DNA from: Malacoraja senta
Taxonomy: Eukaryota
Assembly (NCBI GenBank): GCA_038087875.1
Contig: CM075993.1
Location: 11,596,001-11,660,000, forward strand
Direction: 5' to 3'
Length of the DNA: 64,000 nt
Shown here: positions 3,646 through 47,283 of the stretch, piece after piece
How positions within the stretch are numbered: the first letter of the stretch is position 1
Layout: each line of letters begins with the position of its first letter
Position numbers and translations under genes: made by a program
Notes under the pieces: generated by a model
The model's database searches: none
The model's input: only the letters and a program-made list of their open reading frames with translations
What the model was told of the DNA's origin: nothing

Positions 3646-3848
3646 CTTATTCAAACAAGAGATGGACACAAAAAGCTGGAGTAACTCAGCGGGTCAGACG
3701 GCATCTCCGGAGAAAAGGAATAGGCGACGCTTCGGGTCGAGACTCATTTTTCAGCGATGCTGCATGACCCGCTGAGCTACTCCAGCTTTTTGTGCCTGTC
3801 TTCGGTGTAAACCACCATCTGCAGTTCCTTCCTACACTTATTCAAACA
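3646..3848. mobile_element. Fold-back Penelope pLTR mini-element with 12 bp TSD
   Basis: Inverted copies of the pLTR tail and a partial hammerhead on the minus strand. CTTATTCAAACA at 3646-3657 and 3837-3848. Confidence 0.7.
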
Positions 3849-4599
3849 GGAATGCATTCACTCAACTTTTTTTACTCACCTTTTTTTTTCTCTGTCAAGC
3901 TGCCGAGTTAACTCAACGGGTCACGCAACATTTCTGGATAAAAGGAATCGGTGACGTTTGAAGGAAGGAAGTTTGGAAGGAAGGAATTGCAGATGCTAGT
4001 TTCAAATTTTTCCTTCAAGAGTAAATTTGACTCGTGGAAATCTTTCATCATGTTGAAAGATTTTCACGAGTTATCAAGTTTCCCGAGTACCTGCCGTTAG
4101 CGTTACGAGTCGCTAAGTTATGTCCACGAGTTCCGACGTTCCCGCTACGTTAATTCTACGTGATTACCACGAGTTTGATTTGTTTTTAACTCGGGATCAC
4201 TCGTGGGTGGACTCGCACCGTGAGACCGGGGTTTAAGCACATCTTAAGTCTTAAGTCACCTGTACCTATATTAATGGTTCAACACTGCCCTCTTCAGTTG
4301 GATACAGTGCATTACAGAATTTCCACTTTAACCATCTGATGCCAGGAGAAAGTCACACAAATTCACATGAACACACCATATTAGACAAATATATCTGCAC
4401 TGATATCTCTACACAAAATACATCCTGCAATCATCCAAGTATTTTACCACTTATCAAAGGAAAGTTGTCTATCCTAAACACATTAAACTTGAGGGTTAGT
4501 GATACAACTAAAAGCAACAGAACACTCAAAACACATTTTAACATGAACATTCACCACAGTGACTCCTACACATTCCTCACTGTGATGGAAAGCGAAATA

Positions 4600-8092: not shown

Positions 8093-8675
8093 AGCTGGAG
8101 AAACTCAGCGGGTGAGGCAGCATCTATGGAGCGAAGGAATAGGCGACGTTTCGGGTCGAGACCCTTCTTCAGGCTGATGTCGGGGGGGGGCGGGAAAAAG
8201 AAAGGAAGAGGCGGAGACAGTGGGCTGTGGGAGAACTGGGAAGGGGAGGGGGAGGAGAAAGAAAGCAAGGACTACATTAAATTGTAGGTCAATGTTCATA
8301 CCGCTGGGGTGTAAACTACCCAAGCGAAATATGAGGTGCTGTTCCTCCAATTTGCGGTGGGACTCACTCTGGCCATGGAGGAGGTCCAGGACAGAGAGGT
8401 CAGATTTGGAATGGGAGAGGGAGTTAAAGTGCTGAGCCACCGGGAGATCAGGTTGGTTCTTGTGAACTGAGTGGAGGTGTTTGCAAAGCGATCGCCAAGC
8501 CTGCGCTTGGTCTCACTGATGTAGAGCAGTTGACACCTGGAACAGCGGATGCAATAGATGAGGTTGGAGGAGGTGCACGCGAACTTCTGCCTCACCTGGA
8601 AAGACTGCTTGGGTCCTTGGATGGAGTCGAGGGGGGAGGTAAAGCGACAAGTGAAGCATTTCCTGCGGTTGCAAG
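8093..8675 (-). mobile_element. Penelope-like element 3' fragment (GIY-YIG region plus hammerhead-bearing 3' end), frameshifted
   Basis: CNRRKCFTC...NLIYCIRCSRCQLLYISETKRRLGDRF, then AQHFNS...RKLEEQHLIFRLGSLHPSGMN in another frame. Confidence 0.9.
8145..8172 (-). ncRNA. Minimal type I hammerhead ribozyme motif
   Basis: Minus strand reads CTGAAGA-A-GGGT(CTCG)ACCC-GAAAC-GTC; core intact. Confidence 0.7.
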
Positions 8676-10269
8676 AAATTCTCAGAAAGGGCATACAGAC
8701 TGCAGTTCCGCAAAGAAGCAATTAGGTACTTAAGAGCACACTGAAAATCTAAATCTCCTGTCCTTCTCCTGCATCACCTAATCAGTGACAATCGACGGGA
8801 GGACTCCCTCGTTTGTACATCTCTGCTTCCTTCTAGTCAGAAAGAGAGAACTACTCAGGCACTTAAGCAAGGTGTCATCATCACTTAAGCAAGGTGTCGT
8901 CTTCGAAAAAAGCCTTCCTCTGTAGGGCACCCAAATTTATTACGAGAGACATGTTCCCTGCAAAGCCGAAAGACAACACTGTTGTGGCAACAGGATTATT
9001 GGTTTACCCAAGATGCAGCGGGTGATTGACAAAGAAACAAGCTGCTGAACACACCGCATGAGGAACCTGTCACTTCCATCCACAGGAAAGATTAATGCTT
9101 GCTAAATGTGCTAACCCACTGTGATGCTCAGCTGGGGATTCTGCACAAGATCTCAGATCATCAGTGAACAGTGATGTGTAATCACTGTATATAATATATT
9201 GGACTCTTTAAAATACATGTCACAGTCAATAAAATACATTTTATTATTATAACATTATGAAATATGAGCAGACTTGATTTTAGAAGTTGTAGTTCTTATA
9301 CCTTCTCTTGTCGCATCCCTACCTGGTTCTGGCTTACGTTGCCATTTATATAAATACCATGGAGTTACCCATTGTTTGGTCTGTCCGCAAGATCGTATTT
9401 CCCAATTGGCTTTACTGCATCATATATGAATCACATTTTTGGCAAATTACAGCATAAAATTCAATCTTAACAGAGAGCTGAAGGAGTATTGTGTAACATG
9501 AAACATGCTGTTGTGCAAGATCAAACTGATTATAACAGAAGCAGCCTGATGTTGCCCCATGAAATTAGATATCTGTGATTTTACGCTTTGCATAAGGTTT
9601 TCCTGTGGTGAAATAAAAACATTATACAAATATTACTCCGGATTTTTGTCTCGTGGAGTTCTTGGGAGTTCTGTATTTAGAAGACATAGCTACATTTAAA
9701 TTAGTATTTTGCATTTTCTTTAAGAAATGGAAAGTTTAAGTGTGTGATCCTGATATGACTTTTCAAGTTGATATGCAAGGGGACAAATCACATAAATTTT
9801 AGAATTGAAGTGTTTATGTGATTTTTTTTAGGCTGTATGGAACTCTGTCACACAGAACAGAAAATTCAGAACTTAATGAGTTAGAGTTGACTAGGCTCAC
9901 AGTGGGGAAGGGAGCATTGCGACTTATTTTGTATTCCTGCCCATTATTTTTTGACAAGACATCCTAGACTGCAATGGTTTATATGCACAAAAACAAATGT
10001 TAAAACATCACTGCACTTGAGATTATGCAGGTTTTATGCAATCTCACAGTGAAGTATTTTCTAGAACATTTGGAGTGCATTGAATTATGTGAATTGACAT
10101 CCGCGATCTTCTGCATAATTGTATAAAGTGTAATGAAATTTCTAAAGATATTGATCCCCACAAAAAGCTATAGTTTCCAATGGCACCAACACGCTGAGGG
10201 GTAGTGCTTATTTGGAACAACTTTTTCTCTTAGATCATAATTCATATTTCTTACAACATACAAGGAGGA

Positions 10270-16132: not shown

Positions 16133-17624
16133 AACAAATGAGATGAAAACTTTTGAATGAGGGTGGAGAGGTGGGTGACCTGGTTGAATGGGAAATCTGC
16201 ATGATGAGATCCAGGAGAATGCGTCTCGAGTTTTATTTGCATGTTGGTATTCAGAATCTCACCTAAAATCAATGTGAATCAACAAGCAGCCAATAGATAG
16301 GAGAGGGATTTCAATAGGTAGACGCGAACAGTCCCCAGTCCGAATGAAAGTCATCAAGAAATTCATTACTAGCATTTAAATCAGGCAGAAATTAGAGGTT
16401 GGACAAACTTGGATCATTTTCCCTGGAGCATCGGAGGCTGAGGGAAATCTATTAGAGGCATAAATAGAATGGAAATTCAGAATCTTTACCCAGCGTGGAA
16501 ATGTCAAATACTAGAGGGATTAGCTATGTCAGGGCGAGAAAGTTTGTAAAAAGTAGGTGCCTGGAACTTTCTGCATAGGGTGGTGGTGGAAACAGATATG
16601 ATGGTGGCATTTAAGAGGCTCTTGGTTGCATGAATATGCAGGTATATGCAGTGATACAGAGCATATGCTGGCAGAAAGAATTAGCTTAACTAGGTATCAT
16701 GTCTGACACAGACATTGTGAGCAAGAGCCTGTAGCTGTGCTGTACTGTTCAATACACTCTGTTCAGAAGGGTCAGCCCAGGCAGGTGAGGTCTAAAGCAG
16801 GTTCCAAAGAGGAATCTCTGTTCATCGGATTCTGTAGAAGATACGTTAAAAATGATGTCAGCTTAGATTTGCTAGGTCATTTCTGATCCCAGTTTAACTT
16901 CCTGACAGGTTTGTTCTGGCAGGTTCTAGTTACAAATTGAAGTTCAAGCCTGGACAAGGCCCTAGTTGCATCATCCACTCATTTAAAGGTGGCAAATGTT
17001 GTCGATCTCAGCAGCCTCAATGACCAGGGGAACAAGGGGACTTGAAGGCTGTTGCCACGGAGGTTCGACATTTGAGTTTGTTGTTTTCTTCTAATATATG
17101 ATTTAGATGTAAATGTTAGAAACATAACAAGGCATTTCATAAATAATATAAAGTTTGGCTTTGTGATTGACATTGAGGAGTAAAACTTGAGACCATTGAA
17201 AGCTATAATCTGTTGTGTTGGATAGAAGCCTGACAAATAGAAGTTAATCCAGAGAAATGTGCGTCGATGCATTTGAGGAGGTGGTAACCAAGCAAGGGAA
17301 CATTTAATAAATGGGAAGAAAAATAAAAAGTTATTGGATTGTTTATCCAGAGATAGGTAGCAGACAGATGAATAAAAATACATAAGTAATACTTTCCTTT
17401 AATAACTACGCATAGAGCATAAGAACATGGGGTCATGTAGAACTGTATATAACACAGACTGTGAGGACAAAGCTTGATGATTTTGTACAATCACCACTTT
17501 ACAGGAATGACTGGAGAGCAAGCAAAGGAGATCTACAGAACGCTTTCAGGACTGGAAAATTGTGGTTGTGAGATAAGGTTGATAAGCGAGAGTTCTTTCC
17601 TATGGAACAGAGGAATTGAGGGCA

Positions 17625-17867
17625 GGCTTGTTGGGGAGCACTTCTGGTCCAGTGATCACAATACCATTAGTTTCAATATAATTATGGAGAGGGTCAGAAC
17701 TGGACCTAGGGTTGAGATTTTTGATTGGAGAAAGGCTAACTTTGAGGAGATGCGAAAGGATTTAAAAGGAGTGAATTGGGACGTGTTGTTTTATGGGAAG
17801 GATGTAGAAGAGAAATGGAGGACATTTAAAGGTGAAATTTTAAGAGTACAGAATCTTTATGTCCCTG
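17625..17867 (+). pseudogene. CR1 ORF2 fragment (end of endonuclease region), interrupted by the Penelope element
   Basis: GEHFWSSDHNTISFNI...FDWRKANFEEMRKDL. Confidence 0.85.
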
Positions 17868-17933
17868 GTACACAAAAAAATGCTGGAGAAACTCAGCGGG
17901 TGCAGCAGCATCTATGGAGCGAAGGAAATAGGT

Positions 17934-17961
17934 AACGTTTCGGGCCGAAACCCTTCTTCAG
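17934..17961 (-). ncRNA. Minimal type I hammerhead ribozyme motif in the Penelope 3' pLTR
   Basis: CTGAAGA-A-GGGT(TTCG)GCCC-GAAAC-GTT on the element's sense strand, about 115 nt after the stop codon. Confidence 0.72.
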
Positions 17962-18077
17962 ACTGATAGGGGGTGGGGAGAAGAAAGGAAAAAAGGAAAA
18001 GGAGGAGGAGGAGCCCGAGGGTTGGGGGAGGGGAGGAGACAACCAGATGGCTGATGAAGGGGAGGGGACAGCCAGGG

Positions 18078-20537
18078 CTAGCAGAATTGGGAGAATTCAA
18101 CGTTCAGGCCACCAGGGTGTAGACTGCCCAAGCGGAATATGAGGTGCATTTCCTCCAATTTACGGTGTTGCTCGCTGTGGCCATGGAGGAGACCCAGGAC
18201 AGAGAGGTCAGATACGGAATGGGAGGGGGAGTTGAAGTGCTGAGCCACCGGGAGTTCAGGTTGGTTATTGCGGACCGACCGGAGGTGTTCGGCGAAACGA
18301 TCGCCAAGCCTCCGCTTGGTCTCACCGATGTAGATCAGCTGGCATCTAGAGCAGCGAATGCAATAGATGAGGTTGGAGGAGATGCAGGTGAACCTCTGTC
18401 GCACCTGGAACGACTGCTTGGGTCCTGGAATGGAGTGGAGGGGGGAAGTGAAGGGACAAGTGTTGCATCTCTTGCGGTTGCAAGGGAAAGTACCAGGGGA
18501 GGGGGTGGTATGGGAGGGAAGGGAAGAATTGACAAGGGAGTTACGGAGGGAGCGGTCTTTGCGGAAGGCAGACATAGGGGGAGATGGGAAGATGTGGCGA
18601 GTGGTGGGGTCACGTTGGAGGTGGCGAAACTGACGGAGGATCACTTGTTGTATGTGACGGCTGGTGGGGTGAAAGGTGAGGACTAGGGGGACTCTGCCTT
18701 TGTTGTGAGTGGGGGGATGGGGAGAGAGAGCAGTGTTGCGGGGTATGGCAGAGACCCTGGTGCGAGCCTCATCTATGGTGGAGGAGGGGAACCCCCGTTC
18801 CCTGAAGAATGAGGACATTTCAGATGCCCTGGTGTGGAACGCCTCATCCTGGGAGCAGATGCGGCGTAGACGGAGGAATTGGGAGTGGGGGATGGAGTCC
18901 TTACAGGAAGCAGGGTGGGAAGAAGTGTAGTCCAGATAGCCATGGGAGTCGGTAGGTTTGTAGTGGATGTCGGTAAGGAGTCTATCACCTGCGATGGAGA
19001 TAGTGAGGTCAAGGAATGGTAGGGAAGTGTCGGAAATGGTCCAGGTGTATTTAAGTGCCGGATGGAAGTTGGTGGTGAAGCGGATGAAGTCAGTCAGTTG
19101 TGTGTGGGTGCAGGATGTGGCACCAAAACAATCATCGATGTAGCGGAGGTAGAGGTCGGGGATGGGGCCCTGGTACGCATTGAACAGGGATTGTTCTACG
19201 TACCCGACAAAGAGGCAGGCGTAGCTGGGGCCCATGCGTGTGCCCATAGCTACGCCTTGTATTTGGAGGAAATGGGAGGAGTCGAATGAAAAGTTATTAA
19301 GTGTAAGTACCAGCTCCGCTAGGCGGAGGAGGGTGTCAGTGGCCGGGTATAGATTGCTTCTACGGTCGAGGAAAAAACGGAGGGCTTTGAGACCATCCTG
19401 GTGGGGGATGGAGGTGTACAGTGACTGGACGTCCATGGTGAAGATGAGGGGGTGAGGGCCTAGAGAGTGGAATGCGCGGAGATGACGGAGAGTGTCTGAG
19501 GTGTCTTGAACATAGGTGGGGAGGGATTTAACCAAGGGGGATAGTATGGAGTCGAGGTAGGTGGAGATGAGTTCGGTGGGGCACGAACAGGCAGAGACAA
19601 TGGGTCTACCGGGACAGTCAGGTTTGTGGATTTTGGGGAGAAGGTAAAAGCGGGCTGTGCGGGGCTGGGGAACGATGAGGTTGGAGGCTCGTTCGGGCAG
19701 GGCGTGGGAGTGGATGAAGTTGGTGATGGTGCTGGAGATGGTGGCCTGGTGCTCGTCAGTGGGGTCATGGTCCAGGGGTAAGTAGGAAGAGGTGTCCGAG
19801 AGTTGGCGCGTGGCCTCAGCTTTGTAGAGGTCGACGCGCCAGACTACCACGGCACCTCCCTTGTCGGCGGGTTTGATAACCCAATCTAGGTTGTTGCGGA
19901 GTGAGTCGATGGCAGTGCGTTCAAGGGGGGAGAGATTGGAGTGAGACAGGGGAGTGGAGAAGTTGAGGCGGTGGATGTCACGGCGGCAGTTTTTAATAAA
20001 GAGTTCTAAAGCCGGAAGGCTGCGAGGGGGGTTCCATGAGGATGGGGTGCGTTGGAGACTGGAAAAGGGGTCATCAGTGGGGAGCGAGGACTGCTTCCCA
20101 TGGAAGTGAGCTGTGAGGCGGAGGCGACGGTAGAAGCGTTCCAAGTCATGGAGGGCACGGAACTCATTGAGATGGGGACGGAGGGGGACAAAGGTAAGAC
20201 CTCTGCTGAGGACAGACCGTTCGATGTCGGAGAGGGGGAGGTCGGGGGGGATGGTGAACACCCGGCAGGGATGGGGGTTGGGGCCGGAGGAAGGCAGGTG
20301 GGTGTAATGGGGACGAGGCGATGTGTGGTGGGGGGGTGGTGGGTGGTCAGGGGGTGGGGGGGTGAGAGGGCAGTGGTGTGGGTGTGGAAGAGAAGTGGTC
20401 CCATAGTTGGAGAGGGATGGGGAAGAATCAGTGGAACTGCCACTGAGATAACCAGGGCTAGGCAGACTAGCGCTAGGACCCAGTGGAGTCAAACCCCGGA
20501 GAGTGGGAGTGAACAGCGTGGAGGCTTCAGGCCCAGC
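18078..20537 (-). CDS. Penelope-like reverse transcriptase with C-terminal GIY-YIG endonuclease (5'-truncated, no native ATG)
   Basis: RT motifs IKPADKGG, YLLPKIHK, GRPIVS, MDVQSLYTSIP, GVAMG, YLRYIDD, LPFLD. Cys linker CNRKRCNTC. NLIYCIRCSRCQLIYIGETKRRLGDRFAEH. The frame is open upstream of the TTG at 20492 up to the junction. Confidence 0.93.
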   Translation of the reverse strand, partial: AGPEASTLFTPTLRGLTPLGPSASLPSPGYLSGSSTDSSPSLSNYGTTSLPHPHHCPLTPPPPDHPPPPHHTSPRPHYTHLPSSGPNPHPCRVFTIPPDLPLSDIERSVLSRGLTFVPLRPHLNEFRALHDLERFYRRLRLTAHFHGKQSSLPTDDPFSSLQRTPSSWNPPRSLPALELFIKNCRRDIHRLNFSTPLSHSNLSPLERTAIDSLRNNLDWVIKPADKGGAVVVWRVDLYKAEATRQLSDTSSYLPLDHDPTDEHQATISSTITNFIHSHALPERASNLIVPQPRTARFYLLPKIHKPDCPGRPIVSACSCPTELISTYLDSILSPLVKSLPTYVQDTSDTLRHLRAFHSLGPHPLIFTMDVQSLYTSIPHQDGLKALRFFLDRRSNLYPATDTLLRLAELVLTLNNFSFDSSHFLQIQGVAMGTRMGPSYACLFVGYVEQSLFNAYQGPIPDLYLRYIDDCFGATSCTHTQLTDFIRFTTNFHPALKYTWTISDTSLPFLDLTISIAGDRLLTDIHYKPTDSHGYLDYTSSHPASCKDSIPHSQFLRLRRICSQDEAFHTRASEMSSFFRERGFPSSTIDEARTRVSAIPRNTALSPHPPTHNKGRVPLVLTFHPTSRHIQQVILRQFRHLQRDPTTRHIFPSPPMSAFRKDRSLRNSLVNSSLPSHTTPSPGTFPCNRKRCNTCPFTSPLHSIPGPKQSFQVRQRFTCISSNLIYCIRCSRCQLIYIGETKRRLGDRFAEHLRSVRNNQPELPVAQHFNSPSHSVSDLSVLGLLHGHSEQHRKLEEMHLIFRLGSLHPGGLNVEFSQFC

Positions 20538-20591
20538 TAAACTAAACTAAAACTACTTTAAACTAAAGAGGAATGTGCTTCCAGCAGGGAG

Positions 20592-20928
20592 CTGCGGTTA
20601 CTGCTGGAACTGCAGATGCTGGAAAATCGAAGGTAGACAAAAGTGCTGGAGAAACTCAGCGGGTGCAGCTGCACCCACTGAGTTTCTCCAGCACTTTTGT
20701 CTACCTTCGAATTTCCAGCATCAGCAGTTCCTTCTTAAACACTTTGTCTACTCCACTGCGAAATCTCCTCAAGGTATGCCTACTTTGAAGAAGTTCTCCT
20801 CCTCCCTCCGAAGACAGATTTCTGAAGAAGGGTTTCTGCCCGAAACGTTACCTATTTCCTTCGCTCCATAGATGCTGCTGCACCCGCTGAGTTTCTCCAA
20901 CACTTTTGTCTACCTGCGGTTACTGCTG
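20592..20928 (+). mobile_element. 307 bp non-autonomous Penelope derivative with 15 bp TSD, 5' fold-back, tandem pLTR tail and hammerhead
   Basis: CTGCGGTTACTGCTG at 20592-20606 and 20914-20928. Hammerhead core at 20822-20849. Confidence 0.8.
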
Positions 20929-21044
20929 CTCTAAGAAGTTATTTCCATGTAAACCAGGTTTCTGTGGTATCTCTGGAGGTAAAGATCATAGACAAGAACA
21001 AGGGGCGGACACACAGATTCCAGTGGGGCAAACCTTCAGTTAAT

Positions 21045-21345
21045 TGATTGATTAAAAGATAAAGCAATGAAACAGACCCTTTAGCCCACAGAGTCCATGC
21101 TGACCGCTGATCACCTGTACACACCAGTTCTATGTTACCCCACTTTGACACCCACTCCCTACATACTAGGGGCAACTCACCTACAAACCTGTGCATCTTT
21201 GGGATGTGAGAGGAAAGCGGAGACCCATGTGGTCACAGGGTGCACGTGCAAACTCCACACAGACAGCTCCTGAGTTCACGATTGACCCCGGGTCTCTGGC
21301 GCTGCGGGGCAGCAGCTCTACCTGCCGCGCCACCGTGCCGCCCAA
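21045..21345 (-). mobile_element. HE1 SINE
   Basis: Reverse complement begins GGGCGGCACGGTGGCGCGGCAGGTAGAGCTGCTGCC. Confidence 0.85.
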
Positions 21346-24264: not shown

Positions 24265-25020
24265 TCTATATAACTAAAAGTCTCATCTTGACCACTTCCT
24301 GTCTGCACTGTATATTGATTTTAGAAACAACGCTACTATATATCGCTATGATTTTGGCCATCTTATTCACAGTCCTCCTCCACTGAGGCAGCCCCGAGGA
24401 TTTTTCCGATCGATGAAAAATAAAAAAGTTATGAATGTTTAAAGAATCTTGAGATTAGCTGATTGGTCCTCTCGCCTGTCAATCATCATGATAAATGTAA
24501 CGCCCCTTCCGGGGGGCCACGAGTATAAAGCCCCGGAGGCTGGACGTGAGTCCGACACCCTGGAAAACTGTGAGTGAGAGTTGAGCCCAGAACTGTGAGC
24601 CGTGAAATGAAATGAATTGGTAGCCTGCACTCTGCTTGAAATGGTATGAAGTTAATTTGATAGCCTGCACTCTGCTTGTAATGGTATGAAATGAATTTGG
24701 TGGCCTGCACTCTGCTTGAAATGGTATGAAATGAATTTGAGTTTGGTGGCCTGCACTCTGCTTGAAATGGTATGAATGTATTTGAATTTGGTGGCCTGCA
24801 CTCTGCTTGAAATGGAATAAAATTGAATGTGAATTTGGTGGCCTGCACTCTGCTTGAAATGGAATGAAATTGAATTTGAATTTGGTGGCCTGCACTCTGC
24901 TTGAAATGGAATGAAATGAATTTGAATTTGGTGGCCTGCACTCTGCTTGAAATGCTATGAAATGAATTTGAATTTGGTGGCCTGCACTCTGCTTGAAATG
25001 GAATGAAATTGAATTTTCCC
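24265..25020 (+). mobile_element. Helitron-like non-autonomous element, 5' part
   Basis: Starts TCTATATAACTAAAAG right after an A, at a position where other CR1 copies read A^T. Contains an internal minisatellite. No 3' CTRR end found. Confidence 0.55.
24603..25015 (+). repeat. Minisatellite, 9 units of ~40-47 bp
   Basis: Constant core GCCTGCACTCTGCTTG(A)AATG separated by variable GAAAT/GAATTT linkers. Confidence 0.92.
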
Positions 25021-25765
25021 AACTCAACCCCTTTCCACCCTGCGCAGAGACCATTCTCGCTGCAACTCCCTGGTTAACTTATCCCTTCCCACCCAAACTA
25101 CCCCCTCCCCAGGTACCTTCCCCTGTCCCTATACATCCTCCCTCGACTCTGTCCAGGGACCCCGACAGTCCTTTCAGGTTAGGCAGATGTACACTTGCAC
25201 CTCCTCCAACCTCATCTACTGTATCTGTAGTTCAAGATGTGGACTCGTACATCGGCGAGACCAAACGTAGACTGGGCGATCGTTTCGCAGAACACCTTCG
25301 CTCAGCCCCTGAACCTACCTGATCTCCCAGTTGCTAAACATTTTCATTCTCCTTCCCATTCCCACACTGATCTTTCTGCCCTAGGTCTCCTCCATTGCCA
25401 GTGAGGCTAAATGCAAATTGAAGGAATAGCATCTCATATTTTGCTTGGGCAGCTTACAGCCCAGTGGTATGAATATGGATTTCTCTAACTTCAGGTAGCC
25501 CCGGCATTCCCTCTCTCTCTATCCCTCCCCCATCCCCCTAGCTTCTTATTTTCACCCTACAAACATCTTACAATGGCCTGTTTCCTTTATCATCGTTACT
25601 TTTGCATATCTTTCATTCATTGTTCTTTATCTCTCTACATCATCGTCTATATCTCTTGTTTCCCTTATCCCTAACCAGTCTGAAGAAGGTTCTTGACCCG
25701 AAACATCACCCATTATTTTTCTCCAGAGATGCTGCCTGTTCCACTGAGTTACTCCAGCTTTTTGA
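25021..25765 (+). mobile_element. Penelope-like 3' fragment (degenerate GIY-YIG plus mutated hammerhead at 25680-25707)
   Basis: YIGETKRRLGDRFAEHLRS; CTGAAGAAGGTTCTTGACCCGAAACATC. Confidence 0.85.
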
Positions 25766-26769: not shown

Positions 26770-26972
26770 TATTTACAGTAGACAAAAATGCTGGAGAAAC
26801 TCAGCGGGTGAGGCAGCATCTATGGAGAGAAGGAATAGGTGACGTTTCGGACCCGAAACGTCACCTATTCCTTCGCTCCATAGATGCTGCCTCACCCGCT
26901 GAGTTTCTCCAGCATTTTTGTCTACCTTCGATTTTTCCAGCATCTGCAGTTCCTTCTTAATTATTAACAGTA
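26770..26972. mobile_element. Near-perfect 73 bp-arm palindrome built from the Penelope pLTR, with 11 bp TSD
   Basis: Arms 26778-26850 and 26853-26925 (one mismatch). TAT(T/T)(T/A)ACAGTA flanks: TATTTACAGTA at 26770-26780 and TATTAACAGTA at 26962-26972. Confidence 0.85.
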
Positions 26973-27020: not shown

Positions 27021-27202
27021 CCTATTTGTGTAGAAAGGAACTGCAGATGCTGGTTTAAACCGAAGATAGATACAAAACCCTGGAGTAACTCAGCGGGACA
27101 GGCAGCATCTCTGGAGAGAAGGAATGGGTGACGTTTCAGGTCAAGACCCTTCTTCAGACCTGTCCCGCTGATTACTCCAGCTTTTTGTCTATACCTATTT
27201 GT
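27021..27202 (-). mobile_element. Fold-back hammerhead mini-element with 9 bp TSD
   Basis: CCTATTTGT at 27021-27029 and 27194-27202. Mutated core at ~27130-27157. Confidence 0.75.
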
Positions 27203-27794
27203 TTGTTATATTTAAATTAAAATCTCATATTCTGTACATAATTATATTGGGCACCACTTAAACGTAAAGATGTAGTACCTGATGAGATTTCCCTGAAGGC
27301 ACCTCGAATATAAAACGACCACCTATCTCTATGGCTTTGCGCCGATTAGATCCCAAATAGATTGTAACCTGGCTGCTTCTTTTATATATAGAACGGTCTA
27401 TTTATGCATTTGTCATTTTATAAATATTTCAAGCTTTCAAATACGTGGCTTTAAGTTGATCTTTAGCTGTTTGTTCCCAAGTTGACGTTGTGAAGATGGG
27501 TCGATGGACAATGGTACTTTATTGTCAGGTACAAATGCACAGTGAAATTCTTTTCTTACTTACAGTCCAGCAAAGTATTGCCAGACCTGAGCACCATCCC
27601 CGATTAGCAAAGTCTTCAGAAATAGTCCACTGAGATCGCATGGAAGAGGCACCATGTTTTGGCACCATTTTGGCCATCGAGCGATGCTCGAACCAACCAG
27701 ACAGCAATGCTCAACTACTTCTCCCTCTTTGGTGAACCCGCAGACTATCCTTGATCGGACTTCGCTGGCTTTACCTTGCACTAAACGTTAGTTA

Positions 27795-39338: not shown

Positions 39339-41130
39339 TCTCTCATAATTTTATATGCTTCCATCAGGTTCCATCCTCAACCTCTGGCATTTCAGAGAAA
39401 ACTGTCCAACTTCTCCCTGCTGCTAAAACCTCCTAATCCGAGCATCATTCTAGTAAACCTCCGCTGCACCTTTTCTAAAGCCTCCACTTCCTCCTTGTAA
39501 AGGTACTCAAGGGGATCATGACAGAAGCCTCCTGGTAGCGATCCCCGGAAATGACGACTCAGTGATACGTCGGGCGACCGACTCTGTCAACATGTTGGAC
39601 GACGACGGAAGCCGACAGCGAGGTACGCATCGTCTGACACAGGGGCGAACGATGGGGTGCCCAGAACGAGACACCATACTCCAAATGCAGCCTCTCCAAA
39701 CTCCTCTAGAGCTGCAGCATGACTTCTTGACTAAAATACTCAGCATCTGACCAATCAAGGCAAGCATACCACATGCCTTCTTTACCCTTCATTGACGTTT
39801 GTTGCCACTTTCAGGGAGTTATGGACTTAAACCGAAAGATCCCCCTGTACATCAATACTGTTAAAGGATTTGCCTTTAGTTGTATACTTTCCTGTTACAT
39901 TCGACCTCCAGTTGCTTGTGTACACACAGCATTTCATTCTCGACCCGAAACGCCACCCATTCCTTCTCTCCGGAGATGCTGCCTGTCCCGCTGAGTCACT
40001 CCAGCTTTTTGTGTCTATCTGCGGTTTAAACCAGCATCTGCAGTTCCTTCCTCCACATTTCATTCAATATTGGATTAGCTGGTTTCAACAACATGGATGG
40101 GGTCAAGGAAAGAGCATTCACGTCGCGGCCCTGATTCCACCAATCTTTCCACCACCACGTACAAGAAGCACAAGAAGCGACAAGACAGACACCATTGTAT
40201 GCAGATGGCGAGAAGTGTGTTCAGCTCCGGCTTGATCAATTTCTAATCTTGTGACATGGACTCGATAAGAAGAACATGGATAGGAAATGCAAAATATCAT
40301 TGAAGTTTGTATATTCTCACTTGAAATGTTATAAACACCTCAAAGACCCTTGTGACAATGAACAATGAGTTTTACCACATGGAATATTATTTTGATTAAT
40401 GACAATTAATGACAATTATCAAATAGGAGAGGGAAGTGAGATGAGTTTTATTTTGCTTCTTTCTAGGATGGTGGGATGAATCAAATACTAGAGGGCATAG
40501 CTTTAAGGTGAGAAGCCAAAGTAAAGGAGATGTGTGGGCAAGTAGTTTACACAGAGGGTGGTGAGTGCCTGCAATGTGTTGCCTGGGGTTGTGGTGGTTT
40601 AATTTGGCATCATGTTTTGCACAGTCATTGTGGGCCGAAGGGCCTGTTCTTGTGCTGTGCTGGTCTACGTTCTATGTTAGATCAAAGTACCAAGCATGGA
40701 CTCATGAGTTGAAATCCTAAGGTAGTATTGAAGTCAGAGTTATACTGCGTGGAAGCAGGCCCTTCAGCTCAACTTGCCCACACTGACCAACATGTGGCAT
40801 CTGCACAAGTCCCACCTGCCCCCTGCACCAACTCCTCCTCAGCCACTCATTCATCTCCCCCATCTTCAGGCTCTTACCCACACAAGCACATGGCATTGGA
40901 AGCAATCCCGAGATCGAAAGTATCTGCCGGTGATATCAAGGTACCTTGCTTGAGTGAAGCATCACAGTGCCCCAGTAAACCTAAAGACAAAGGACATCAA
41001 AGAGAAAGCACACCAGTAGTGGAGACATATCGTGGACAAAGCCAGCGGGGGTGGTGGTGGTTCCTGGAGGTCAAAGACCACAGTACCAGGACATTGCTTC
41101 AAGCATAATCATTTTGACCCTTCTTCAACA

Positions 41131-42709: not shown

Positions 42710-45700
42710 GTTATTTAAGAAGGAACTGCAGATGCTGGATAATCGAAGGTAGACAAAAACGCTGGAGAAACTCAGAGGGTGAGGCAGCATCTATGGAGAG
42801 AAGACGTTTCGGGTCGAGACCCTTCTTCAGACTGATGTGGGGGTGGGGGGGGCGGGAAGAAGAAAGGAAGAGGCATAGACAGTGGGCTGTGGAAGAGCTG
42901 GGAAGGGGAGGGGAAAGAAGGAGAAAGCAGGGACTACCTGAAATTGGAGAAGTCAATGTTCATACCGCTGGGGTGTAAACTACCCAAGCGAAATATGAGG
43001 TGTTGCACCTCCAATTTATGGTGGGCCTCATTATGGCCATGGAGGAGGCCGAGGACAGAAAGGTCAGATTCGGAATGGGAGGGGGAGTTGAAGTGCTGAG
43101 CCACCGGGAGATCAGGTTGGTTATTATGAACCGAGCGAAGGTGTTGGGCAAAGCGATCGCCAAGCCTGCGCTTGGTCTCACCGATGTAGAGCAGCTGACA
43201 TCTAGAGCAGCGTATGTAATAGATGAGGATGGAGGAGATGCAGGTGAACCTCTGCCGCACCTGGAAAGACTGCTTGGGTCCTTGAATGGAGTCAAGGGGG
43301 GAGGTAAAGCGAAAAGTGTAGTATTTCCTGCGGTTGCAAGGGAAAGTGCCAGGAGAGGGGGTGGTTTGGGTGGGAAGGGACAAATAGACCAGGGAGTTAT
43401 GGAGGGAACGGTCTCTGTGGAAAGCCGAAGATGTAAAGAGGAGATGGGAAGATGTGGCAAGTGGTGGGGTCACGTTGCAGGTGGCGAAAATGGCGGAGGA
43501 TTATTTGTTGTATGTGGCGGCTGGTGGGTTGGAAGGTGAGGACAAGGGGGATGGGAAGTGAGAGCAGAGTTACGGGGTATAGAATAGACCCTGGTGAGAG
43601 CCTCATCTATAGTAGAAGAGGCGAACCACCGTCCCCTAAATAATGAGGACATCTCTGATGCCCTGGTTTGGAACACCTCATCCTGGGTACAGATGCAGCG
43701 TAAACGGAGGAATTGGAAATAGGGGCTGGAGTCCTTACAGGAAGCAGGGTGGGAAGAAGTGTAGTCCAGATAGCCATGGGAGTGAGTGGGATTCTAGTAG
43801 ATGTCGGTCAGTAGTCTATCACCTGCGTTAGAGATAATGAGGTCCAGAAACGGTAAGGTGATGTCGGAAATGGTCCAGGTGTATTTGAGTGCCGGATGGA
43901 AGTTAATGGAGGTGAAATGGATGAAGTCAGTGAGTTCTGTATGGGTGCAGGAGGTCCTTTTCACAATGGCAGGCCGTGACCAGTGGGGTACCACAAGGCT
44001 CAGTGCTGGGACCCCAGCTATTTACAATATATATTAATGATTTGGACGAGGGAATTGAATGCAACATCTCCAAGTTTGCGGATGACACAAAGCTGGGGGG
44101 CAGTGTTAGCTGTGAGGAGGGTGCTTGGAGGCTGCAAGGTGACTTGGATAGGCTGGGTGAGTGGGCAAATGCGTGGCAGATGCAGTATAATGTGGATAAA
44201 TGTGAGGTTATCCACTTTGGTGGCAAAAACAGGAAAGTAGACTATTATCTGAATGGTGGCCGATTAGGAAAAGGGGAGATGCAACGAGACCTGGGTGTCA
44301 TGGTACACCAGTCATTGAAAGTAGGCATGCAGGTGCAGCAGGCAGTGAAGAAAGCGAATGGTATGTTAGCATTCATAGCAAAAGGATTTGAGTATAGGAG
44401 CAGGGAGGTTCTACTGCAGTTGTACATGGTCTTGGTGAGACCACACCTGGAGTATTGCGTACAGTTTTGGTCTCCTACTCTGAGGAAGGACATTGTTGCC
44501 ATAGAGGGAGTACAGAGAAGGTTCACCAGACTGATTCCTGGGATGTCAGGACTTTCATATGAAGAAAGGCTGGATAGACTCGGCTTGTACTCGCTAGAAT
44601 TTAGAAGATTGAGGGGGGATCTTATAGAAACTTACAAAATTCTTAAGGGGTTGGACAGGCTAGATGCAGGAAGATTGTTCCTGATGTTGGGGAAGTTCAG
44701 AACAAGGGGTCACAGTTTAAGGATAAGGGGGAAATCTTTTAGGACCGAGATGAGAAAAACATTTTTCACACAGAGAGTGGTGAATCTCTGGAATTCTCTG
44801 GCACAGAATGTAGTTGAGGCCAGTTCATTGGCTATATTTAAGAGGGAGTTAGATGTGGCCCTTGTGGCTAAAGGGATCAGGGGGTATGGAGAGAAGGCAG
44901 GTACAGGATACTGAGTTAGATGATCAGCCATGATCATATTGAATGGCGGTGCAGGCTCGAAGGGCCAAATGGCCTACTCCTGCACCTATTTTCTATGTTT
45001 CTATGTTTCTATGTAGCACCAATGCAATTGTCGATGTAGCGGAGGTAGAGTTGGGGGATAACCATATAACCATATATAACCATATAACCATAACAGCACG
45101 GAAACAGGCCATCTCGGCCCTTCAAGTCCGTGCCGAACATTTTTTGTTCCACTCTACGTCTCGAACAAAGATTGTTCGACGTACCCTACAAAGAGGCAGG
45201 CATAGCTTGGGCCCATGCGCGTGCCCATAGCTACGCCTTTTATTTGGAGGAAATGGGAGGTCAAACGAAAAGTTGTTAAAGATAAGGACCAGCTCCACTA
45301 GGTAGAGGAGAGTATCAGTAGATGGGGATTGGTTGGTTCTCCGGTCGAGGAAGAAACGGAGGGCTTTAAGACCCTCCTGGTGGGGGATGGAGGTTTAGAG
45401 TGAAGATGGTGGGAATGGGGGGGGCCTGGAAAACGGAAGTCATGGAGGAGACGAAGAGCGTGTGAGGTGTCTTGAACATAGGTAGGGAGGGATTTAACCA
45501 GGATGGAGTCGAGGTATGTGGAAATAGGTTCGGTAGGACACGAACAGGCAGAAACAATGGGTCTACCAGGACAGTCAGGTTTGCAGATTTTGGGGAGAAG
45601 GTAAAATCGGGCCGTGCGGGGCTGGGGAACGATGAGGTTGGAGGCTCGGGAGGACAGGGAGCCGGAGTTAATGAAGTCAGTGATGGTGCTAGAGATGGTG

Positions 45701-45755
45701 GCCTGGTGCTCGTCTGTGGGGTCATGGTCCAAGGATAAGTAGGATTTTCCAAGAA
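42710..45755 (-). mobile_element. Second Penelope-like copy (degenerate, 5'-truncated) with 13 bp TSD and two nested inserts
   Basis: TTAATGAGGAAGA at 42697-42709 and 45756-45768. RT and GIY-YIG fragments collinear with the 18-20 kb copy. Intact hammerhead core at 42803-42830. Confidence 0.9.
43953..45014 (+). mobile_element. Young 5'-truncated CR1 LINE nested in Penelope
   Basis: Uninterrupted 312-aa ORF2 C-terminus ([15 protein letters not shown]); (TTCTATGT)n tail. Confidence 0.95.
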
Positions 45756-45875
45756 TTAATGAGGAAGAAGTATTTCTGCCAATTCAAATAGACTGAGGTC
45801 TGTGGATGAGGAAGTCGATGACCCAATTGCAGAGGGATGCTCCGAGACCCAGTTCCGTGAGCTTGGTAATCAGTT

Positions 45876-47125: not shown

Positions 47126-47283
47126 AAACACTGTGGTGTTGTCTGAAGAAGGGGATCGGCCCAAAACGTTGCCTATTTCCTTCGTTGCATAGATGCTGCC
47201 TCACCCGCTGAGTTTCTCCAGCACTTTTGTCTACCTTCGACTTTCCAGCATCTGCAGTTCCTTCTTAAACACTGTGGTGTTGT
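47126..47283 (+). mobile_element. Hammerhead-only mini-insertion with 17 bp TSD
   Basis: AAACACTGTGGTGTTGT at 47126-47142 and 47267-47283. Insert starts at CTGAAGA (47143); core mutated. Confidence 0.8.

What the first reader, a model, noticed from the sequence alone, without database searches (positions are those of the whole stretch)
20592..20928. Retrozyme-like 307 bp unit: fold-back, tail, short putative ORF start, hammerhead, tail, inside a perfect 15 bp TSD
Seen: an inverted tail (20607-~20669), then a sense tail continuing into sequence found in no other copy here (...CTCCTCAAGGTATGCCTACTTTGAAGAAGTTC..., reading MPTLKKFSSSLRRQIS). This joins directly to CTGAAGA and a second copy of the tail, giving a permuted direct repeat of about 210 nt period. 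Inference: the extra segment may be the true 5' end and start codon of the autonomous element, fused to the 3' hammerhead by a large deletion. Alternatively it is a copy of a ~210 nt circular or tandem self-cleaving RNA reverse-transcribed past its junction.
Basis: partly seen in the sequence, partly recalled or inferred. Interest (0 to 1): 0.7.

Follow-up and report, generated by a model that had tools for sequence, protein, structure and literature searches.

The report
Miniature Penelope retrotransposon insertion lacking ORF
This is a real but fairly ordinary short, broken copy of a Penelope-type jumping gene in a shark or skate genome: it keeps the normal end repeats, a crippled ribozyme motif and the first 15 codons of its gene, and is probably not a self-cleaving circular RNA.

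Summary
In detail: a 307-bp unit lies inside a 15-bp direct repeat and holds a 63-bp fold-back, a 209-nt partial repeat and a minimal hammerhead. It is a Penelope-like element (PLE) insertion with the published layout: inverted pseudo-LTR (pLTR) with a tail, direct pLTR, ORF, pLTR without tail, and a target-site duplication (TSD). All but 46 nt of the ORF is missing. The start-codon idea holds: the 15-residue peptide matches the N-termini of PLE ORFs (rank 1 of 1223 window ATG peptides; 0 of 10000 shuffles reach it). The 'unique' segment is a genome-wide repeat in public contigs. Fold-backs, one-sided tails and 9-17 bp TSDs recur in other copies in the window. The retrozyme reading is not supported: there is one hammerhead, no tandem array, and the junction cuts helix I to 1 bp. 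The likeliest origin is a template jump during reverse transcription at a spot where this family's copies often begin (suggestive only). Whether the junction recurs elsewhere was not resolved.

The parts
20592..20606 (.). Left copy of the target-site duplication (15 nt; last base also fits the element)
20607..20668 (-). Inverted, 5'-truncated pLTR arm carrying about 24 nt of the ~35-nt PLE tail at its outer end
   Evidence: (3' end at offset 54)
20661..20676 (.). Perfect 16-nt palindrome at the head-to-head junction of the two arms
20669..20741 (+). Direct 5'-truncated pLTR with full tail (tail about 20707-20741); 3 substitutions against the inverted arm (20677, 20711, 20723)
20742..20775 (+). 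5' UTR of the autonomous element (genome-wide repeat)
20776..20821 (+). First 46 nt (15 codons) of the PLE ORF, MPTLKKFSSSLRRQI
20821..20822 (+). Junction of ORF start to hammerhead; at most 1 nt (T) shared; the native upstream CAG and helix I 5' strand are absent
   Evidence: (records 19, 31)
20822..20849 (+). Minimal type I hammerhead core (CUGAAGA, bulged A, helix II, GAAA-CG-U-U with palindromic helix III); predicted cut site 20849/20850; helix I reduced to 1 bp
   Evidence: descriptor from PMC4209133
20850..20915 (+). Rest of the 3' pLTR, ending at the short (tail-less) end point
20914..20928 (.). Right copy of the target-site duplication (first 2 nt also fit the element)
   Evidence: (X1 record 8)
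17867..20538 (-). Neighbouring 5'-truncated Neptune-type PLE of the same subfamily: open frame 18078-20546 (822 aa stop to stop; RT, C-x4-C-x2-C linker, GIY-YIG), 3' UTR, hammerhead-pLTR from 17961

Best explanation
One dead-on-arrival insertion of an endonuclease-containing Penelope-like element (Neptune type) in a cartilaginous-fish genome. Shown from sequence: TSD, inverted pLTR with partial tail, palindromic junction, direct pLTR with tail, 5' UTR, first 15 codons of the ORF, hammerhead-pLTR without tail, TSD. Inferred mechanism: the GIY-YIG endonuclease of an autonomous copy nicked both strands 12-15 nt apart, giving the TSD. One nick primed reverse transcription at the short internal start site and copied about 95 nt of pLTR back to the family's usual 5' stop point at TCAGT|CTGAAGA (Inr-like, possibly the RNA's 5' end). 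The enzyme then jumped onto an RNA at ORF position +46 and copied back through ATG, 5' UTR and tail into the pLTR. The other nick primed within the tail, or the cDNA folded back, and the two arms were joined head to head at the quasi-palindrome. The 209-nt period is just the pLTR-to-pLTR distance left by the jump. Identity as a PLE insertion about 0.92; this route about 0.55.
For: Layout equals Pen2a_Av and a deleted Pen2 derivative in PMC3846280 (two direct pLTRs plus an inverted pLTR, 9-10 bp TSD, 31-bp tail on one end, palindrome at the inverted junction; passages) and Fig. 2 legend of PMC8557442. ORF start: mean BLOSUM62 score 12.9 (M excluded) against the 11 homologs with M 39 residues before the KTR motif; null mean -13.2, sd 4.5; best of 1223 window ATG peptides; 0 of 10000 shuffles. 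The 20738-20815 bins have summed contig depth 5.3-9.9e5 in X1 against 20.9 in the unique flank, and are covered in all 4 runs (not a copy number). A Leucoraja gene model holds the same pLTR-UTR-ATG run at 82% over 50 aa and does not continue into the hammerhead frame. TSD-like repeats scoring 9 or more flank 7 of 12 other insertions examined, against 1 of 300 random pairs. 3' ends cluster about 35 nt apart (8 of 26 arms at offsets 27-34, 10 of 26 at 62-72), matching the two RT start sites of PMC11167929. 5' ends of other arms cluster at the junction position: 5 of 16 within 4 nt, 9 of 16 within 12 nt.
Against: The 5' clustering is only suggestive: scan p 0.065 (4 nt), 0.032 (8 nt), 0.011 (12 nt), three widths tried; the 9 of 26 arms with long native upstream were left out of that count. 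The pile-up of joints at 20821 is confounded, because the stretch lacks the native upstream bases, so it is not counted. Boundaries for the TSD survey were set by eye after some TSDs had been seen, and 1 of the 7 is purine-rich low complexity. No sequence linking this ATG to an RT domain was recovered. Only 5 of the 11 registered homologs score 25 or more; 3 score negative. No empty site was seen. The two-nick, two-primer step extrapolates from a Poseidon-clade protein in vitro.
Confidence: 0.55

Rival explanations
1. The unit is one copy of a dispersed non-autonomous PLE family (MITE-like). The junction arose once in a master copy, or arises repeatedly because ORF +45 is a third preferred 3' end, and a ~209-nt RNA is mobilised in trans by the Neptune protein.
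For: The ORF-start bins are deeper than the neighbour's linker bins (5.3-9.9e5 against 0.8-3.7e5 in X1). The Leucoraja copy also stops resembling PLE N-termini after residue 15. pLTRs alone suffice for mobilisation in trans (PMC3846280), and non-autonomous PLEs are described (PMC8557442).
Against: None of the 32 contig pieces shown spans 20821/20822 (168267 were hidden). Records 19 and 31 match to 20821 and then have 5 and 2 unaligned letters; six others (6, 9, 12, 28, 29, 30) run on for 23-418 unlike letters. The depth difference can come from fast linker divergence. The Leucoraja break may be a gene-model splice.
Confidence: 0.2
2. A full-length PLE inserted here with the canonical layout and later lost about 2.7 kb or more by a DNA deletion.
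For: An internally deleted derivative with inverted pLTRs and a 10-bp TSD is described in PMC3846280. The end state is identical.
Against: At most 1 nt of microhomology (two records). The right break falls within the few bases where other arms begin, which a random deletion would rarely hit.
Confidence: 0.13
3. A true non-LTR retrozyme: a 209-nt monomer cut out by its hammerhead, circularised and reverse-transcribed about 1.2 times round.
For: The permuted partial repeat is what a circular template would give. PMC4209133 proposes circular PLE intermediates. Retrozymes are reported in one chondrichthyan and linked to pLTRs (bioRxiv 10.64898/2026.07.22.740005).
Against: One hammerhead only and no tandem array. 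The ribozyme is the minimal, dimer-dependent PLE type. Helix I has 1 adjacent pair against 2+2 in 5 of the window's native copies, and helix II has lost a pair. The fold-back and tail are PLE insertion marks.
Confidence: 0.05
4. The junction is a splice junction (the ORF removed as an intron at the polypyrimidine-CAG acceptor just before the hammerhead), or the unit is the inverted 5' cap of the neighbouring PLE from one complex event.
For: Native copies have a pyrimidine tract and CAG directly before TCTGAAGA, and the D. virilis intron ends at helix I. The neighbour is about 50 bp away and 96.6% identical over 87 nt of pLTR.
Against: Other copies keep T at 20821 (records 19, 31), so no GT donor follows the left side. 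The TSD brackets only the unit; no TSD was found round the neighbour, and an (AAACT)n-rich spacer separates them.
Confidence: 0.07

Closest known systems
Canonical EN+ PLE insertion, e.g. Pen2a_Av and the deleted Pen2 derivative of Adineta vaga (PMC3846280, passages read)
   Same: Two direct pLTRs plus an adjacent inverted pLTR, palindromic inverted junction, tail at one end, TSD of about 10 bp, Inr-like motif in the pLTR, internally deleted copies
   Different: Here nearly the whole ORF is gone (46 nt left), the TSD is 12-15 bp, the ATG lies about 35 nt past the tail, and the break has no real microhomology
Neptune clade PLEs (criteria from PMC8557442, passages read)
   Same: [quoted passage not shown]
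   Different: Clade set by the linker motif only, which Nematis shares; no tree was built and no repeat library was available for comparison
PAc (Poseidon, Anolis) internal RT initiation (PMC11167929, parts 1-2 of 4 read)
   Same: Two 3' end points separated by a tail; nicking and extension of both strands would explain TSD plus head-to-head arms
   Different: In PAc the start sites lie inside the ORF and the ATG inside the hammerhead; here both main end points lie upstream of the ATG
Animal non-LTR retrozymes (PMC7229834, passages; bioRxiv 10.64898/2026.07.22.740005, parts 1-3 of 5)
   Same: Non-coding, about 200 nt period, type I hammerhead, derived from a PLE pLTR
   Different: Not tandem, a single minimal hammerhead with helix I broken, no circle shown

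Membership tests
EN+ Penelope-like element insertion | pLTR with minimal type I hammerhead core | tested here: met
   Core, bulged A, helix II and palindromic helix III found by pattern; Rfam gathering search gave 0 hits
EN+ Penelope-like element insertion | Inverted 5'-truncated pLTR with palindromic junction | tested here: met
EN+ Penelope-like element insertion | 30-40 nt tail at one end only | tested here: met
   Left arm ends at offset 54 (partial tail), right arm at about 30 (no tail); window end clusters at 27-34 and 62-72
EN+ Penelope-like element insertion | Target-site duplication | tested here: met
   12-15 nt; the empty site itself was not seen
EN+ Penelope-like element insertion | ORF start homologous to PLE ORFs | tested here: met
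Autonomous PLE | RT plus GIY-YIG ORF inside the unit | tested here: not met
   Only 15 codons remain; RT and GIY-YIG are in the neighbouring copy, both below Pfam cut-offs but with 548 homologs at E <= 0.001
Neptune clade | CX2-5CxxC linker before GIY-YIG (parent family) | tested here: met
   C-x4-C-x2-C in the 822-aa neighbour (criterion); shared with Nematis
Neptune clade | Placement in an RT tree | not tested
   No reference clade sequences were fetched
Non-LTR retrozyme | At least two consecutive units each with a complete hammerhead | tested here: not met
   One hammerhead; no array; criterion
Non-LTR retrozyme | Hammerhead able to form helix I | tested here: not met
   1 adjacent pair; prediction only
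Non-LTR retrozyme | Same monomer at many loci | tested here: inconclusive
   No shown contig spans the junction, but the table was cut; no genome held
Non-LTR retrozyme | Monomeric circular RNA and self-cleavage | not testable with these tools
   Only assembled contigs were available

The most novel reading that the evidence does not exclude
The unit and the many solo pLTRs record a strong-stop step in PLE retrotransposition: RT starts about 95-130 nt from the RNA's 5' end (Inr-like TCAGT just before the hammerhead), runs off, and must jump to reach the rest of the element. A jump onto a short RNA ending at ORF +46 would have founded a dispersed 209-nt non-autonomous family with a crippled ribozyme. 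Skate genomes, with a pLTR every 3 kb or so, would then let the origin of pseudo-LTRs be tested from junction statistics alone.
Probability: 0.18. Interest if true: 0.55.

Novelty: new member of a known kind. Interest (0 to 1): 0.22.

Why it matters
As it stands it matters little: one broken copy among a very large number, in a layout published since 2013. It does give the 5' UTR and start codon of an abundant cartilaginous-fish Neptune-type family, useful for curating a consensus. The side observation that pLTR copies begin at one Inr-like base and end at two fixed points bears on the open question of how PLEs make their pseudo-LTR and inverted structures, and could be tested on any skate assembly.

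Tried and rejected
No genome is held for this window, so no genome-wide search was possible. Rfam: 0 hits. Attempts to recover the native continuation of the ORF: protein search with the 40-aa UTR/ORF-start frame gave 1 hit of 6 candidates; search with residues 1-150 of the neighbour among shorter proteins gave 1 hit of 298, not reaching an N-terminus; representative search gave 3 hits, 2 of them unrelated repeat proteins; DNA pattern scans gave 0 in metagenome and viral contigs, then 1 and 3 matches that were chance hits in unrelated DNA. A weak tblastn match to PLE N-termini at 27297-27554 (E 0.014-0.018, stops, no KTR motif) was rejected as chance. No RNA holder was listed with certainty; X15 is only guessed to be RNA, so expression was not assessed. 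The joints and loose ends piling up at 20821 were rejected as evidence for a hot spot because the stretch lacks the native upstream bases. An X3 contig that stops aligning at 20933 with 46 unlike letters beyond could be an empty or altered site but cannot be read. Unconstrained folds of the hammerhead regions did not give the hammerhead fold for the unit or for 4 native copies, so only pair counts were used. Three look-ups of earlier findings returned nothing. Six paper searches listed no study of this family's junctions; subscription papers are outside the library, and supplements of the bioRxiv retrozyme preprint (chondrichthyan consensus sequences) could not be seen and may already hold a related family.

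Full report
Setting. The window is eukaryotic and rich in CR1-like and Penelope-like repeats. Named homologs come from Chiloscyllium, Rhincodon, Hypanus and Leucoraja, so the host is a cartilaginous fish, probably a skate or ray (inference). No whole genome was held.

Observation. All listed features are present: a 15-nt perfect direct repeat enclosing 307 nt, a 63-nt fold-back at 95%, and a 46-nt repeat at spacing 209. The fold-back is far beyond chance (z -12.4). A contig of run X1 is identical across 20888-21150 at depth 20.9, confirming the right junction. The left junction was not spanned by any listed contig. One to three terminal bases of the TSD also fit the element, so it is 12-15 nt. 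Tandem Repeats Finder reports nothing here.

An 822-aa open frame on the minus strand (18078-20546) ends about 50 bp left of the unit. It has weak RVT_1 and GIY-YIG matches (E 3.9e-6 and 8.8e-4, both under Pfam's cut-offs) and 548 homologs among 8000 scored candidates. Its C-x4-C-x2-C linker is the Neptune/Nematis mark given in PMC8557442 (passages). Its 3' hammerhead-pLTR is the closest match to the unit's in the window, 96.6% over 87 nt. It aligns to full-length homologs only from about their residue 165-180 onward, so it lacks its own 5' end.

The extra segment is the element's 5' end. Of 120 homologs listed, 49 carry a conserved KTR-like motif near the N-terminus, and 11 of these have a methionine 39 residues before it. 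Against those 11, with the M excluded, the peptide from 20776 scores a mean of 12.9. It is the best of 1223 stop-free ATG peptides in the window (null -13.2, sd 4.5; next best 2.2), and 0 of 10000 shuffles reach the mean. Five of the 11 share 6-7 of 15 residues with it; three score negative. In public contigs the bins 20738-20815 are covered in 4 of 4 runs, in X1 at summed depth 5.3-9.9e5 against 20.9 for the unique flank (the tool warns this is no copy number). Two records match exactly to 20821 and then stop with 5 and 2 unaligned letters, and six more continue for 23-418 unlike letters, so other copies do not run into the hammerhead here. A Leucoraja gene model holds the same pLTR-UTR-ATG run (82% over 50 aa) and also lacks the hammerhead frame after it. 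I could not recover the sequence joining this ATG to an RT, so that link is inferred.

The layout is the published PLE layout. PMC3846280 (passages) describes an ORF between two pLTRs with an adjacent inverted pLTR, a 9-bp TSD, a 31-bp tail on one end, palindromes at the inverted junction, and an internally deleted derivative with a 10-bp TSD. PMC8557442 (passages) gives the same scheme. The unit maps onto it piece by piece, with a 16-nt palindrome at 20661-20676. The window supplies controls. Of 26 pLTR arms found by one motif, 8 end at offsets 27-34 and 10 at 62-72 (these counts include the unit's own arms), about 35 nt apart, as expected from the two RT start sites in PMC11167929 (parts 1-2). 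Fold-backs with a tail at one end and a TSD also occur at about 3660-3837, 26778-26960 and 27027-27193. Seven of 12 other insertions have flanking repeats scoring 9 or more (9-17 nt), against 1 of 300 random pairs; boundaries were set by eye and one case is low complexity.

Not a retrozyme. [quoted passage not shown] Its hammerhead is the minimal PLE type with palindromic helix III, which needs a dimer (PMC4209133, parts 1-2). Five native copies among the 13 cores listed pair helix I as 2+2, with a compensatory U-A to C-G change in one; the junction leaves 1 pair, and helix II has lost one. Native helix I is itself weak, so this lowers but does not exclude activity.

How the ORF was lost. The right side of the junction starts at offset -1/0 of the hammerhead core. 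Leaving out the unit and the 9 arms with long native upstream, 5 of 16 arms begin within -2..+1 and 9 of 16 within 12 nt (scan p 0.065, 0.032, 0.011 for 4, 8, 12 nt). Those five abut a TSD or a fold-back directly. The native sequence there is TCAGT, Inr-like (consensus recalled; Inr motifs in PLE pLTRs are reported), and also acceptor-like. I infer that RT often runs off the RNA's 5' end there and that in this insertion it jumped to ORF +46. This is suggestive only. A later DNA deletion, or copying from a pre-deleted master, gives the same sequence. The deeper cover of the ORF start than of the neighbour's linker, and the Leucoraja copy leaving PLE-like sequence at the same codon, keep a recurring short form open. 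The apparent pile-up at 20821 was not counted, being forced by the query.

Verdict. A real, internally truncated PLE insertion of a known design: new member of a known kind, interest 0.22. The most novel reading left open (run-off and jump as the source of pLTRs, plus a 209-nt non-autonomous family) has probability about 0.18.

Noticed in passing
window 17867-20538 (-): 5'-truncated Neptune-type PLE with an uninterrupted 822-aa frame, inserted into a CR1-like ORF2 fragment (17465-17866), with no TSD found and its 5' end at an (AAACT)n-rich run (20539-20567).
   Followed up: partly
window 641, 3754, 27158, 47142, 50053: pLTR arms whose 5' end lies within a few bases of TCAGT|CTGAAGA, abutting a TSD or a fold-back; possible transcription start or RT run-off point.
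   Followed up: partly
window 47126-47283, 628-749, 39930-40065: Solo pLTR insertions of about 95-130 nt with 17, 16 (1 mismatch) and 10 nt TSDs.
   Followed up: partly
window 3646-3851, 26770-26972, 27021-27202: Pure fold-back pLTR insertions with a tail at one end only and TSDs of 9-15 nt; 26778-26960 folds back inside the helix II loop.
   Followed up: partly
window 20770-20778: CAAG|GTATGC resembles a splice donor lying over the start codon, and native pLTRs are preceded by a pyrimidine tract plus CAG; together they could excise the whole ORF or back-splice a ~160-nt circle. Untested.
   Followed up: no
joints 20737/20741 to 20821: Contigs in 4 of 4 runs join the tail end to the hammerhead start, which may be head-to-tail pLTR tandems (~130-nt period), closer to true retrozyme arrays than this unit; the letters between are not known.
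   Followed up: no
P0121 residues 311-360: A Leucoraja TRIM-like gene model contains an in-frame PLE pLTR-UTR-ORF-start fragment; probably an annotation artefact or exonisation.
   Followed up: partly
window 8094-8694, 42714-45843, 25013-25760: Further decayed PLE ORF fragments (EN and RT parts), one interrupted by a CR1-like insertion at about 43934-44914.
   Followed up: no
window 24603-25016: 46-nt tandem repeat, 9.3 copies, directly before a PLE endonuclease fragment.
   Followed up: no
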